DNA of 64,000 nt from the NCBI GenBank assembly GCA_964016885.1, contig OZ024761.1, positions 15,190,001 through 15,254,000 on the forward strand. The letters are read 5' to 3'. Of the stretch, positions 50,301 to 56,300 are shown one piece after another. The DNA is from Eledone cirrhosa. Its lineage: Eukaryota. The notes beneath the pieces are model-generated. The model was given only the letters and a program-made list of their open reading frames with translations, had not been told where the DNA came from and made no database searches. Both the position numbers and the translations under genes were made by a program. Each line of letters opens with the position of its first letter. The first letter of the stretch is position 1.

Positions 50301-53300
50301 AATCGAATATAAGCTGAGGCTTATATTCAGGGTCAATATTTTGATGATTTACACCAATTCTAAATTCTATGTAAATAAGGTTTGGATTTTTGCCCATTTC
50401 TCAGACATAGAATAGTGGGGCCAGCTTATATTTGAGAACATAGGGTAACAAGTGGTTCTTATCTCAAATTATCTTGGAAGTTCCCTGCTGACCCCTAAAA
50501 TGAAAGTGACACCCATTACAGAAGAATTGTATTTAATAACAATCGTAATATTCTAAAGTTTGACCCAAATCTGTTTTATGGCCATATTTTAATATCAATT
50601 TAATAACAGGATTAGAAGGCTAAGATCTTTAATAGTTACATCCTACCAGTTGTGTTATATGGTCTTGACTGCGTCAATTGGACGCAGAAGCTCTCTACAT
50701 TCTGGAACCACATCATGAAACTTATGACTGGCAAGCAGCTCAGCGACCGTATCTGTATCAGTGAGCTGCTCAACATTACCAAACTTTGACCAATTACATC
50801 AATTGTCAAGTCAAGAGTACTCAAACTATATGGTCATATAAAAAGATCAACTCATGGAGTGAGTAGATTATGCCTGGAAGGAAGGTTGGCTGGTAAGAGA
50901 AGCAGAGGCCGGCAGCCAAAACGATGGCTTGATAATATCAACTTATGGACTGGACTTGATCTTTGCTCTTTGAACTCTGCTGCTGGTGATCAAACTTTAT
51001 GGAGAAAAATATCTTATGTTGATGTGCAGTCTGCATCTGGCAGAGTTTAGTGTCACAAGAACAGGATTAGACAAAATTTAGACTTGAATATCAGAAATTG
51101 TTAGACCAATGCTTACTATATTGCTATATTCTGACCTTACAAATAATGGTGTCTTAAAGCATGGAAACATTGGGCATTTAACACCTGCTGGGCTTGGAAT
51201 ACCTACACTGCAACCTAAGTCTGTCTTGAACCCAGAGGTTCATCAAGTTGGAGCTTATTCCAGTTTCCATGGTATTACATGACTGAGAGTACAAGTCACC
51301 TCCTTTGGTAAGGATGCCACTCCATCACAAGGGTTAAACCCCTAGTTATCACTGGTACTCATGTTCAGCTGAGTCAACTTGAGCAACATGAAATGAAGTG
51401 TTTTGCTCAAGAACACAAAACACAACCCAGTCTAGAAACTGAACCCATGACATTGTGATCATAAGTCCACCACCCCTCACCACCAGGCCACACAACTTCA
51501 CTAGAAACAGCTGAGTATAATGGAACAACATGAAATGAAGTGTTTTACTCATGAACACAACACACAAGCCCGTCCAGGAATCAAACCCACACACAACAAT
51601 AGGATACCAAGTCCAACACCCATACCTCTAGGCCGATATAAGGACCTACTGACCATGAGGACCTACTGACCATGAGGACCTACACTGCAACCCCCACTCC
51701 ATAGCCTATATTTAAAATCTGGTACTGACCGTAATATTTCATCTTCAAGGTCTTCAAGTTTTTTCTTATTTGCTGCAATAGACTGGACAAGTGAATCTTT
51801 CTGTTCCTCTAGCTCAGGTCTTTCTTTGCGGACAACAATACCTAACAGCTGACCAACCAGGCCTGCAATGTACAATGTTACCATAGTTTGGACTATAAGA
51901 CTACTTCACACTTCAAACTCCAACATGTGTTAACTACCAGACATCACACACGCTCACATTAAATCTGAGACCCCAAACTCCCACATGTTAAATCTGAGGC
52001 CACAGACCAAACTCCCACATGTTAATTATAGGACCACAAGCTCCCACGTGTTAAATATGAGACTACAAACCCCCACATGTTAAATATGAGACCACAAACC
52101 CCCACATGTGTAAAACAACTACCAAGGCATCACAAACTCCTACATGTGGTAAACAACTACCAAGGCATCACAAACTCCTACATGTGGTAAACAACTACCA
52201 AGGCATCACAAACTCCTACATGTGGTAAACAACTACCAAGGCATCACAAACTCCTACATGTGGTAAACAACTACCAAGGCATCACAAACTCCTACATGTG
52301 GTAAACAACTACCAAGGCATCACAAACTCCTACATGTGGTAAACAACTACCAAGGCATCACAAACTCCTACATGTGGTAAACAACCACCAAGGCATCACA
52401 AACTCCTACATGTGGTAAACAACTACCAAGGCATCACAAACTCCTACATGTGGTAAACAACTACCAAGGCATCACAAACTCCTACATGTGGTAAACAACT
52501 ACCAAGGCATCACAAACTCCTACATGTGGTAAACAACTACCAAGGCATCACAACCTCCTACATGTGGTAAACAACTACCAAGGCATCAATCTCCTACATG
52601 TGGTAAACAACTACCAAGGCATCACAAACTCCTACATGTGGTAAACAACTACCAAGGCATCACAAACTCCTACATGTGGTAAACAACTACCAAGGCATCA
52701 CAATCTCCTACATGTGGCAAACAACTACCAAGGCATCGCAAACTCCTACATGTGGTAAACAACTACCAAGGCATTACATACTCCCACATGTTAAACATAT
52801 CTCTTCCCCCCCCACACACACACACACACCAAAAAAACAAAACAACAACAATAACCAAACTACATGTCCATCCAGGACCACAACCACTTACCCTGCTCTT
52901 TCACAGCAAAATTAACAATGGTGGTCTTGGTTGAGATCTCCGGTGTGTAGTGTGGGTTGCTAAGTTTTGTGGTGATGTAAAAACGGAAGTTCGGATTGTA
53001 TTCAATTTCTTTGTCTGCCAGTTTGATCAACACGACATCACCTGTGGAAAATATACAGTTTAATTAGCTCAACATTACCTGTGGAAAATATACACCTTAA
53101 TTAGTTCAACATTACCTGTGGAAAATATACATCTTAATTAGTCTGACATTACCTGTGGAGAATACACACGTTAATTAGTTCAACATTACCTGTGGAAAAT
53201 ATACATCTTAATTAGTCTGACATTACCTGTGGAGAATACACACCTTAATTAGTTCAACATTACCTGTGCAAAATATACATCTTAATTAGTCTGACATTAC

Positions 53301-56300
53301 CTGTGGAGAATACACACCTTAATTAGTTCAACATTACCTGTGGAAAATATACATCTTAATTAGTCTGACATTACCTGTGGAGAATACACACCTTAATTAG
53401 TTCAACATTACCTGTGCAAAATATACACGTTAATTAGTTCAACATTACCTGTGGAAAATATACAGTTTCATTCATAAGTGTCTTACTCCAATCCTTTTTA
53501 CAGGTGCAGACATTCATAATTTTCCGATGACAAAAATGACTAATTTTAGGGAGTATACTGGGTGTATTTTTGTAATGATGTCGCAAAAATACACCCAGTA
53601 TACTCCCTAAAATTAGTCATTTTTGTCATTGGAAAATTATGAATGTCTGCACCTGTAAAAAGGATAGGAGTAAGACATATATATATATAGACGGACGCGC
53701 ATGGCCTAGTGGTAAGGGTGTTGGACTAACACATGTGGGCATGCCCACAAAGTCAGAAAACAGCACAGTTCCCATGACTTTCGGAAACATCTTTTCATGC
53801 TCAGAGTTGCTGAAGCATGGAACAAACTACCTGCATCAGTTGTTAGCTGTCAAGACACTGCATCCTTTAAAACCTCCATGGAACAAACTACCTGCATCAG
53901 TTGTTAGCTGTCAAGACACTGCATCCTTTAAAACCTCCATGGAAAAAACTACCTGCATCAGTTGTTAGCTGTCGAGACACTGCATCCTTTAAAACCTCCA
54001 TGCTTCCCGAGATTCGCCAACACTACACCTAATGTTCCTCTCCATACACATACACACATGTATATCATGACTCATACACTATTCACTTCCCTGACATTTG
54101 TATATTATTCTATGTACTATACATGCACCTTTGACGAGTTGTAGTGCACCTGAGCACTGTACACAATGATTTCATTATTATTATTATATTATCATAATGT
54201 TGTCGATTCGATTGCTGGGCTGGGTTGCGAGTTCTTGAGCAAAACACTTCATTTCACGTTGCTCCAATATACTCAGCTGAAAAAAGAATTAGTACTAGCA
54301 ATACCTGGGGATTTAACCCTACGATGGACTGGCATCCTGTCCAGTGGGGAGTCTAATACTATCTGTTGCTTCATGCCATGGAAACTGAGATAAGCACTAG
54401 TCTGATGAGCCTCCAGTCTTGAGAGAGACTTTAGGCTTGAGACTATGTATCATCATTCATTATCATTTCATTTTATGTCCACTTTTCCCTGCTTGCAAGG
54501 GTTGGACGGGAACTGATTCTGGCTTGATTTCTACAGCTGGATGCCCTTCCTAACACCAACCTCATTTACAGTGAGTGCTGGCTGCTTTTTTTCCACGACC
54601 ACTTTACAGTGAAATGATATGGACCCCAGTCCCTATCATCTCATATCTACAGCTGAGTAAACTGGAGCAATGTGAAATAAAGTGTCTTGCTCAAGGAAAC
54701 AACACATCACCCGGTCTGAGAATTGAACTCACAACCTTTTGATTGCAAAGCCAATGATCTAACCACTAAGCCATGTGCCTCCATATATATATATATATAT
54801 ATATATATATATATAGTAATAATAATAAATATATATATATATATATACACACACACACATACATAAATATATTGACAGTGGTAGAAGAAGAAAAAAATCA
54901 ACAAGAGAAAGAGAAATAATATATACTAGCAGAATGGCCCGCCATTGCCCAGGATTTGCTCTAGGGTTCTTATATATTTGATATATATTTATCCTTATCG
55001 AGCCTCGTGAAGAAATAAATACGTTTGTTTATATTTTGTTATTGTGTATGCAAAAATATCTTTACACGAATATATAATTATATATATATATATATATATA
55101 TATATATTAAAATAACAGATTAAAGTTTCAGCAAAGAATCGCTGCTTTCACCCTTAACGGGATCTTCCGAAACTAAAAAAATCAATCTGTGAACGCAGAA
55201 GTAAATATTTCGAAAAACGTTACACACTATATACATATATACACACACAGATAGCATCATAATGTCATAATGCAGACAGTCAGACATACAGACAGATATT
55301 ATAAGGGCGCAACGTTATATCTATGTATCTATCTAAAAAGAAAGACTAAGAATTATAGAGATATCGATAAATCGCCTAATGCGGTCCCTAGAGCATTGAA
55401 ACTTCGAAATTTTTTTCCTCAAAACACTCACAAGACCATAAGTATTACATGTGTAAAGTTTGAAAACAATTGGTTGGGTGGTTCTCAAGTTATAGGGATT
55501 CAAACTCACACACACACAGACAGACATCCTCAGTTTTATATATATAGATAAGGCTCAAGGGTGGTGGATTGGCAGTATCGGTAGAGAGTCGGACACCATG
55601 CTTTGCAGAATAGAGTTACGGCCCTTTACGGTCTGGGTTCAAATCCTGCCGAGGTTAGCTTTGCCTTTTTTATCCTTACAGGGTTGATAAACAGTCAGAC
55701 AGACATTCTCTGTTTTAGACATATAGAACAACAGAGAGCGGGAGGATAACAGAGAGGGGGGTGGGTAAAAGAGAGGGGGAGGATAACAGAAAGGGGGAGA
55801 GTAACAGAAAGGGGGAGAGTAACAGAGATGGGGAGAGTAACAGAGATGGGGAGAGTAACAGAGAGGGGGAGAGTAACAGGGAGGGGGAGTAACAGAGATG
55901 GGGAGAGTAACAGAGATGGGGAGAGTAACAGGGAGGGGGAGAGTAACAGGGAGGGGGAGAGTAACAGGGAGGGGGAGAGTAACAGAGATGGGGAGAGTAA
56001 CAGAGATGGGGAGAGTAACAGAGATGGGGAGAGTAACAGAGAGGGGTAGAGTAACAGGGGGGGAGAGTAACAGGGGGGGGTAACAGGGGGGGGGGGTAAC
56101 AGGGAGGGGGAGAAAATAAAGAATGTCTCACCAATTTTAATAACAGACTTAAGGAGGATAGGGTCCAGAGATGGGTCCAAAGTCTCCTGGACATTTTGTA
56201 AGAGGACAGGTAAGCCAAACTGAATGGCTTTTTCTAGGGTCTTCATGAAATCAATTTGTTGAAGGTCAATCACTTTTAAACCCTACAAAATTAAGACAGA

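What the first reader, a model, noticed from the sequence alone, without database searches (positions are those of the whole stretch)
53036..53468. Minisatellite of splice sites: 11 extra 37-nt units, each a complete GT..CTAAT..pyrimidine..CAG mini-intron or recursive-splice-like site
Seen: the real acceptor (ttttccacag|GTGATG, exon start 53041) is tandemly copied 11 times upstream at exactly 37 bp. On the transcribed strand a unit reads GTAATGTTGAACTAATTAAGGTGTATATTTTCCACAG. Every junction is CAG|GTAAT, with a CTAAT branch-point-like motif about 25 nt upstream. Two variants alternate in the middle of the array (74-bp higher-order period). In all copies the exon's GTGATG has become GTAATG, a better donor. 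Known: AG|GT junctions define recursive splice sites, and tandem duplication of AG|GT segments is a proposed route of intron gain. Inference: the first acceptor met in transcription (about 53448) could be used and then re-spliced from the regenerated donor to the true acceptor. That would neutralise an expansion that would otherwise add frame-breaking, stop-containing sequence.
Basis: partly seen in the sequence, partly recalled or inferred. Interest (0 to 1): 0.75.

Follow-up and report, generated by a model that had tools for sequence, protein, structure and literature searches.

The report
Repeated splice acceptor in dynein gene
A 37-base piece spanning the end of an intron and the start of the next exon of a cilia motor gene is repeated 11 extra times inside the intron, a repeat type already known from lancelets and birds and frequent in this genome, and the cell most likely splices past the copies to the last, real site.

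Summary
In detail: 12 CAG|GT junctions lie exactly 37 nt apart in a DNAH2 intron. The unit is an intron end plus an exon start, copied between a 6-nt microhomology. This is a known kind: lancelet 'mirages' and avian 'exon stuttering'. The scan has noted it before on other DNA, including elsewhere in this genome. It is common here: 16 of 834 exon boundaries in 9 dynein genes have such copies (control 0-3), and 2 of 6 large arrays have no AG|GT at all, so recursive rescue is not required. The donor regenerated after step 1 (TTG|GTAATG) scores at the 1.4th percentile of 417 predicted donors. It is predicted to lose to the next unit's CAG|GTAATG (49th), leaving a 37-nt exon with a stop. The reverse order, an internal donor spliced to the real acceptor, would restore the junction exactly and stays open. 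No 37-nt intron is plausible (shortest mapped intron 92 nt). No RNA run was listed, so the splicing route is untested. Interest low.

The parts
53042..53468 (-). Array: 20-nt first acceptor plus 11 units of 37 nt, each exon-derived 17 nt + shared AAACTG-type 6 nt + 14 nt of intron end
53152..53411 (-). Junctions of the alternating A/B units (four 74-nt dimers)
53449..53468 (-). First (most upstream) acceptor 20-mer, identical to the authentic one (0 of 20 differences)
53042..53061 (-). Authentic acceptor 20-mer (18th percentile of predicted acceptors; the 10 internal decoys 5.5th-14th)
53063..53067 (-). Branch-point-like CTAAT in the last unit (A at -23), homologous to TTGAT of the exon start; use inferred
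53463..53468 (-). Microhomology AAACTG at intron -20..-15 (left breakpoint, inferred)
53019..53024 (-). Microhomology AAACTG at exon +18..+23 (right breakpoint, inferred)
52892..53041 (-). Authentic DNAH2 exon, 150 nt, phase 1-1, own donor AGG|GTAAGT (68th percentile)
56132..56282 (-). Upstream DNAH2 exon; weak donor TTG|GTGAGA (5.8th percentile); intron 3,090 nt
53479..53677 (-). Near-perfect inverted repeat (predicted -152 kcal/mol) ending about 30 nt upstream of the first acceptor; each arm belongs to a dispersed repeat family

Best explanation
[quoted passage not shown] Shown: the anatomy, the microhomology, the stops after every decoy, and the frequency of such copies in this genome. Inferred: a first 37-nt duplication, amplification, divergence into A and B, then amplification of the AB dimer; choice of the last acceptor by exon definition (intact 150-nt exon with a good donor, decoys slightly weaker and probably masked by U1 on CAG|GTAATG); removal of errors by nonsense-mediated decay; and CTAAT kept because the last unit must supply the branch point of the real acceptor. 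Because the boundary reads AG|GT, occasional excision from an internal donor to the real acceptor would be harmless.
For: Unit versus exon start 17 of 23 nt, AAACTG at both ends. 16 of 834 boundaries in 9 dynein genes carry copies, against 0, 3, 1, 0, 1 in five other-intron controls; 6 of the 16 are in this gene. A twin array in the same gene (G000:C22:15320946, 8 intact acceptors, 35-41 nt units) reads YAG|GG and has no seamless ratchet; all 8 decoys give stops. AG|GT is not detectably enriched among duplicated acceptors: 3 of 9 against 106 of 417 (2 of 8 without one doubtful hit, p 0.64). First and authentic acceptors score highest of the 12. Only 23 of 375 internal exons reach 300 nt, which 7 of 11 decoy exons would exceed. 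Literature: lancelet mirages with AG/GT signals do not disturb splicing by RT-PCR (PMC3087553, section read; PMC3902484, passages); the CBS 68-bp junction duplication is spliced to the distal site (PMC2630376, passages).
Against: No RNA evidence at this locus. The real upstream donor is weak (5.8th percentile) while 11 internal donors are median strength and nearer, so multi-step removal may be common. The nearest decoys would give 187-261 nt exons, a normal size (161 of 375 exons are 187 nt or more), so length alone does not exclude them. With the 65-intron matrix three decoys scored slightly above the real acceptor. 4 of 6 large arrays do have AG|GT, and 2 of 3 large acceptor arrays (p 0.16): the enrichment test is weak. 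First and last acceptors differ at 0 of 20 positions while the exon-derived part differs at 6 of 17 (Fisher p 0.005, windows chosen after the fact), which a purely neutral history does not explain well. Exon calls are homology predictions.
Confidence: 0.65

Rival explanations
1. Inside-out (3' recursive or nested) removal is the main route: an internal CAG|GTAATG donor splices to the real acceptor, cutting out whole units and regenerating acceptor plus real exon; the weak upstream donor then finishes. G-to-A at +3 would have been selected for this.
For: Unit donor at the 49th percentile and found as an exact 9-mer in 2 of 417 predicted donors; real upstream donor at 5.8th. 9 of 11 unit donors lie 111 nt or more from the real AG, above the 92-nt shortest intron. 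Every such event restores the junction exactly (sequence). The class exists in human introns under 5 kb (10.1101/159350, passages); AGGT repeats are spliced in UBC and may soften repeat expansions (PMC10809524, abstract and discussion).
Against: Non-AG|GT arrays persist. No enrichment of AG|GT seen, low power. The internal donors have no upstream exon to define them (inference). A second AG|GT acceptor array (G000:C19:13650399, 5 copies) kept the exon's bases unchanged at the junction. One substitution is also expected from drift: the last unit differs from the exon at 6 of 17 positions.
Confidence: 0.2
2. One reading: the upstream donor splices to the first acceptor met (53448) and the regenerated donor is re-spliced to the true acceptor (5'-to-3' ratchet).
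For: 10 of the 12 junctions (9 of 11 decoys) fit the minimal human recursive motif (motif from PMC10156609, passages, which reports a median intron of 3.4 kb). The first acceptor equals the real one over 20 nt. GTAATG raises the regenerated donor from 0.77 to 2.62 bits, and a similar CTG|GTAATG donor is predicted in this gene.
Against: Regenerated TTG|GTAATG lacks both -2A and +5G, a class of 12 of 417 donors; 24 of 29 GTAAT donors have AG before them and none has TTG. The next unit's donor is 6 bits stronger; by the donor-competition rule (PMC8605326, introduction) a 37-nt cryptic exon would be kept, with a stop at codon 13 in 11 of 11 cases. Fly ratchet acceptors are stronger than ordinary ones (PMC6110457, passages); these are at the 5.5th-18th percentile. 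The first acceptor has no CTAAT, and a long hairpin ends 30 nt upstream.
Confidence: 0.08
3. The array is a dosage dial: copy number sets the share of transcripts mis-spliced to decoys and destroyed, tuning DNAH2 level.
For: All 11 decoys give a premature stop; such arrays are length-variable in lancelets and chickens.
Against: Stops are expected by chance from a 37-nt intron-derived unit; no conservation, expression or polymorphism data; similar arrays are scattered over many boundaries.
Confidence: 0.05
4. Each 37-nt unit is excised as its own mini-intron.
For: Each unit reads GT..CTAAT..pyrimidines..CAG.
Against: Shortest of 417 mapped introns is 92 nt, median 891 (floor 50 nt for 352 of them). 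The branch A would lie only 14 nt from the donor (sequence), too close by general knowledge of spliceosome geometry (recalled).
Confidence: 0.02

Closest known systems
Amphioxus 'mirage' minisatellites (Adh3, globins BflGb6/BflGb9, troponin C, PGBD5; PMC3087553, PMC3902484)
   Same: Tandem copies of an exon-intron boundary in the adjacent intron; unit within the 10-160 bp range; AG/GT signals kept; homogenised centre with distinct border units.
   Different: Different animal group; a 74-nt two-unit higher order; normal splicing and length instability were shown there and are untested here.
Avian 'exon stuttering' (Hron et al. 2026, PMC12954441)
   Same: Local copies of an exon edge with its splice site; 1-44 copies; 190 of 5,572 dot-chromosome introns (3.4%), close to 16 boundaries in 417 introns here (different method).
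   Different: Described as tied to GC-rich dot chromosomes of birds; this window is AT-rich (GC about 0.39 locally). Population variability untested here.
Human CBS 844ins68 (PMC2630376) and F7 IVS7 37-bp VNTR (PMC1557585)
   Same: Junction duplications whose extra sites are functional-looking yet normal mRNA is made; the site next to the intact exon wins.
   Different: CBS has one extra copy; F7 repeats the donor, not the acceptor.
Dual-specific AGGT sites in tandem repeats, UBC and VCX3A (PMC10809524)
   Same: Head-to-tail repeats with an AG|GT at each junction, where whole units could be spliced out.
   Different: There the repeats are coding, in frame and shown to be used; here they are intronic, frame-breaking and use is not shown.
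Drosophila and human recursive sites (ratchet points; PMC6110457, PMC8605326, PMC10156609)
   Same: Juxtaposed acceptor and donor around AG|GT inside an intron.
   Different: Those are single, conserved, with strong acceptors and a regenerated donor that beats the cryptic exon's donor; here 11 repeat-borne copies with weak acceptors and the reverse donor order.

Membership tests
Mirage / exon-stuttering minisatellite | Tandem unit spans an authentic exon-intron boundary | tested here: met
   14-20 nt of intron end plus 17-23 nt of exon start; 17 of 23 identity
Mirage / exon-stuttering minisatellite | Local origin, copies only beside the source exon | tested here: met
   1 match in G000 (search skips simple repeats)
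Mirage / exon-stuttering minisatellite | Concerted evolution inside, border units set apart | tested here: met
   A and B units 0-1 differences within type; units 53448, 53115, 53078 distinct
Mirage / exon-stuttering minisatellite | Length varies between alleles or individuals | tested here: inconclusive
   Three runs of one sample, contigs only, none spans the array, no joints listed
Mirage / exon-stuttering minisatellite | mRNA uses the authentic site | not testable with these tools
   No RNA run was available to lay; see Tried and rejected
5' recursive site (ratchet point) | Pyrimidine tract + YAG|GT motif | tested here: met
   9 of 11 decoys fit Y5+N0-4YAGGT
5' recursive site (ratchet point) | Acceptor stronger than ordinary acceptors | tested here: not met
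   5.5th-18th percentile of 416 predicted acceptors; 22nd-44th with the 64-acceptor matrix
5' recursive site (ratchet point) | Regenerated donor beats the cryptic exon's donor | tested here: not met
   2.62 against 8.57 bits; matrix scores only
5' recursive site (ratchet point) | Conserved across species | not testable with these tools
   No related genomes held
5' recursive site (ratchet point) | Intermediates, sawtooth coverage or lariats | not testable with these tools
   Needs nascent or total RNA reads
3' recursive / nested excision | Usable internal donor at workable distance, and acceptor regenerated exactly | tested here: met
   49th-percentile donor; 9 of 11 at 111 nt or more; seamless by sequence
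3' recursive / nested excision | Observed use in RNA | not testable with these tools
   Needs junction or lariat reads
Spliceosomal mini-intron | Length within the genome's intron range | tested here: not met
   37 nt against a shortest mapped intron of 92 nt (search floor 50 nt for 352 of 417)

The most novel reading that the evidence does not exclude
The array is self-excising from the inside out: the GTGAT-to-GTAAT change turned every junction into a working donor that outcompetes the weak upstream donor, so whole units are cut away to the real acceptor, regenerating it each time, and the same U1 binding silences the decoy acceptors. AG|GT mirages would then be a natural, countable ladder of 3' recursive splicing and a caught intermediate of intron gain by tandem duplication.
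Probability: 0.2. Interest if true: 0.55.

Novelty: new member of a known kind. Interest (0 to 1): 0.22.

Why it matters
As a single locus it matters little: it is one more mirage. Two points have some value. First, boundary copies occur at about 2% of exon boundaries (16 of 834) in this genome's dynein genes, a rate like that of bird dot chromosomes, in an AT-rich genome; the paper searches run here found no cephalopod report (1 unrelated review; 2 lancelet papers). Second, one gene holds two similar acceptor arrays, one AG|GT and one AG|GG. That is a ready-made pair for testing whether an AG|GT junction changes how duplicated splice sites are removed, which bears on intron gain by tandem duplication.

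Tried and rejected
No RNA holder listed for 52850-53700; this is no evidence on expression or splicing. Laying X1-X3 gave contigs only, no joints, and no cover over the exon, which proves nothing; contig depth ratios were not used as copy number. No close relative was found in three protein searches (120 rows listed each, best identity to the exon 93%, no listed row named as a cephalopod), so the exon start in related species is unknown. I first suspected that AAT (Asn) was the ancestral codon, since many fragment hits read GN; rejected, as 116 of 120 full-length DNAH2 have Gly and 4 Asn. A regex count read the wrong column and was replaced. Branch motif as evidence of mini-introns was rejected: YTRAY is in 135 of 384 acceptor windows against 78 of 384 control windows, and the exon's own TTGAT already fits it. 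Rows dropped: 7 of 73 DNAH2 exon pairs unresolved and 1 doubtful GC call (65 kept); 2 of 10 paralog regions dropped for lack of a good query; exon pairs with gaps over 8 residues skipped; 7 other dynein loci not fetched. One of the 16 hits (C22:15321663, 21 of 30) is doubtful. The donor matrix includes the real donors it scores. The original mirage paper (PMC117041) is not held and is cited only through PMC3087553 and PMC3902484. No supplements were opened; those of PMC3087553 and PMC12954441 may list further cases. The organism was not determined here; earlier scan notes call this genome octopod.
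Full report
Observation. On the minus strand there are 12 CAG|GT junctions from 53448 to 53041, all 37 nt apart; the 11 upstream ones read CAG|GTAATG and the last CAG|GTGATG. 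TRF finds period 37 (11.6 copies, 84% matches) and 74 (94%). Two unit types alternate four times in the middle; the border units are distinct. The array has one match in the 3.0-Gb own genome. Contigs from three runs of one sample match pieces of it without differences.

Host gene. The exon at 53041-52892 matches axonemal dynein heavy chain 2 best. Using mollusc homologs I mapped 74 exon-like hits over the window and the next 100 kb and resolved 66 of 73 introns, keeping 65. Joining 56132 to 53041 aligns without a nearby gap in 120 of 120 full-length homologs. Use of any of the 11 upstream acceptors gives a stop after 14 codons.

Origin. The last unit matches the exon start at 17 of 23 nt, and AAACTG sits at intron -20..-15 and at exon +18..+23, exactly 37 nt apart in the inferred pre-duplication sequence. 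Slippage or unequal exchange at this microhomology is the simplest origin (inference), followed by amplification and then amplification of an AB dimer. The GT is the exon's own first two bases; 106 of 417 predicted acceptors in this genome are followed by GT. The G-to-A change at +3 is probably derived in the unit, since 116 of 120 homologs have Gly at this codon, one step from GAT; it is best read as one event copied 11 times. Of six differences from the exon, four would be silent in the exon's frame, so the side on which each arose cannot be fixed without a close relative.

How common. I located dynein paralogs, fetched ten 100-kb regions, mapped eight of them with the best of the representative proteins, and pooled 417 predicted introns. 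A 30-nt seed across each boundary found a copy (21 or more matches) in the adjacent intron at 16 of 834 boundaries, 9 acceptors and 7 donors; the same seeds against other introns gave 0, 3, 1, 0, 1. Six of the 16 are in DNAH2. Six arrays have 5 or more copies; four have AG|GT junctions and two have none. One of those two is a twin in the same gene: 8 intact acceptors in 35-41 nt units reading YAG|GG, each leading to a stop. AG|GT is not detectably enriched among duplicated acceptors (3 of 9; 2 of 8 without a doubtful hit, p 0.64; 2 of 3 large arrays, p 0.16). The test is weak, but it shows that such arrays persist without a seamless ratchet.

Splice-site strengths (matrices from these predicted introns). 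Unit junction CAG|GTAATG 8.57 bits, 49th percentile; CAG|GTGATG 6.73, 24th; real upstream donor 4.46, 5.8th; exon's own donor 9.73, 68th. After a first splice from 56132 the regenerated donor is TTG|GTAATG, 2.62 bits, 1.4th percentile. It lacks both -2A and +5G, as only 12 of 417 donors do, though one of those, CTG|GTAATG, is in this gene. First and authentic acceptors are identical over 20 nt (18th percentile); the ten internal ones score 5.5th-14th. The smaller 65-intron matrix gave the same donor order but ranked three decoys slightly above the real acceptor.

Mechanism. In flies the ratchet donor generally beats the cryptic exon's donor, and weakening it causes inclusion (PMC8605326, abstract and introduction seen); ratchet acceptors are unusually strong (PMC6110457, passages). 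Here both are reversed, and the predicted product is a 37-nt extra exon with a stop at codon 13 in 11 of 11 cases. Intron length is no objection: lariat-defined human sites have a median intron of 3.4 kb, and 9 of 11 decoys fit their minimal motif (PMC10156609, passages). The opposite order, named 3' recursive in 10.1101/159350 (passages), is better placed: an internal donor joined to the real acceptor removes whole units and restores the junction exactly, and 9 of 11 donors are 111 nt or more away, above the 92-nt shortest intron. Single 37-nt introns are implausible. I put direct one-step splicing by exon definition at 0.65, inside-out removal as the main route at 0.2, and the ratchet at 0.08. 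The CTAAT is most simply the branch point that the last unit must give the real acceptor once duplication moved the old one away; the twin array has TTAAC at -20, while a third array with a 73-nt unit has no such motif. This is inference. Unexplained: 0 of 20 differences between the two end acceptors against 6 of 17 in the exon-derived part (windows chosen after the fact).

Known kind. Lancelet 'mirages' are tandem duplications of exon-intron boundaries, 10-160 bp units, many with AG/GT, that did not disturb splicing by RT-PCR and were already proposed as a route to intron gain (PMC3087553, passages and section 16; PMC3902484, passages). Chicken 'exon stuttering' is the same anatomy in 190 of 5,572 dot-chromosome introns (PMC12954441, passages). 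Human parallels are CBS 844ins68 (PMC2630376, passages; that text says 'donor' for the duplicated intron 7/exon 8 site) and the F7 37-bp VNTR (PMC1557585, abstract). Spliced AGGT repeats are known from UBC (PMC10809524, abstract and discussion). The scan's notes list 15 similar findings in at least 6 genomes and at least four in this genome; these are unchecked leads. Searches showed no paper on such arrays in cephalopods; the library lacks most subscription papers.

Verdict. The proposed ratchet is disfavoured on sequence grounds and untested on RNA. Interest 0.22.

Noticed in passing
G000:C22:15320946 (L008), same DNAH2 gene: Twin acceptor array: 8 extra copies, 35-41 nt units, two alternating types, junction YAG|GGTATG. 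A donor-like GTATG sits one base off register, so re-splicing there would shift the frame.
   Followed up: partly
window 38226-38365 and 27322-27674: Older boundary copies in the window: acceptor 38226 has 2-3 degenerate copies 40-52 nt apart; donor 27674 has two copies at +161 and +352 whose GT has become TT.
   Followed up: partly
G000:C22:15256850 (L002): Acceptor plus about 20 nt of exon copied twice at about 280-nt spacing, together with a dispersed repeat.
   Followed up: partly
window 53479-53677: A dispersed repeat of about 105 nt (80 matches listed at about 40 places, mostly 75-90% identity) is doubled here into a near-perfect hairpin, predicted -152 kcal/mol, 30 nt upstream of the first decoy; a likely substrate for RNA editing and possibly over the old branch region.
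   Followed up: partly
G000:C19:13650399, C19:13666190, C19:6764483, C19:9373168, C9:52072948: Further mirage arrays in paralogous dynein genes: acceptor x5 (73 nt), donors x10 (29 nt), x6 (46 nt), x2 (37 nt) and x12 (21-24 nt, real donor CAG|GTAATG).
   Followed up: partly
9 dynein regions: Boundary copies were uneven: 6 of 130 on C22, 6 of 282 on C19, 4 of 202 on C9, 0 of 220 on C17, C7 and C3 together; a chromosome effect as in birds is possible but untested.
   Followed up: no
window 48736-49404: 116-nt x5 intronic repeat starting 35 nt after a donor, each unit with a pyrimidine tract and TAG|GT; not exon-derived by eye.
   Followed up: no
window about 27800-27830: The intron end before exon 27791 shares a 14-nt word with the B-type unit of the array; probably chance.
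   Followed up: no
window about 4700-6220 and 11000-12510: The same series of microsatellites and a 23-nt repeat recur about 6.3 kb apart, suggesting a local duplication downstream of the gene.
   Followed up: no
G000:C19:6738498-6776544: Two dynein motor-domain copies in inverted orientation about 35 kb apart with near-equal scores, suggesting a recent duplication.
   Followed up: no
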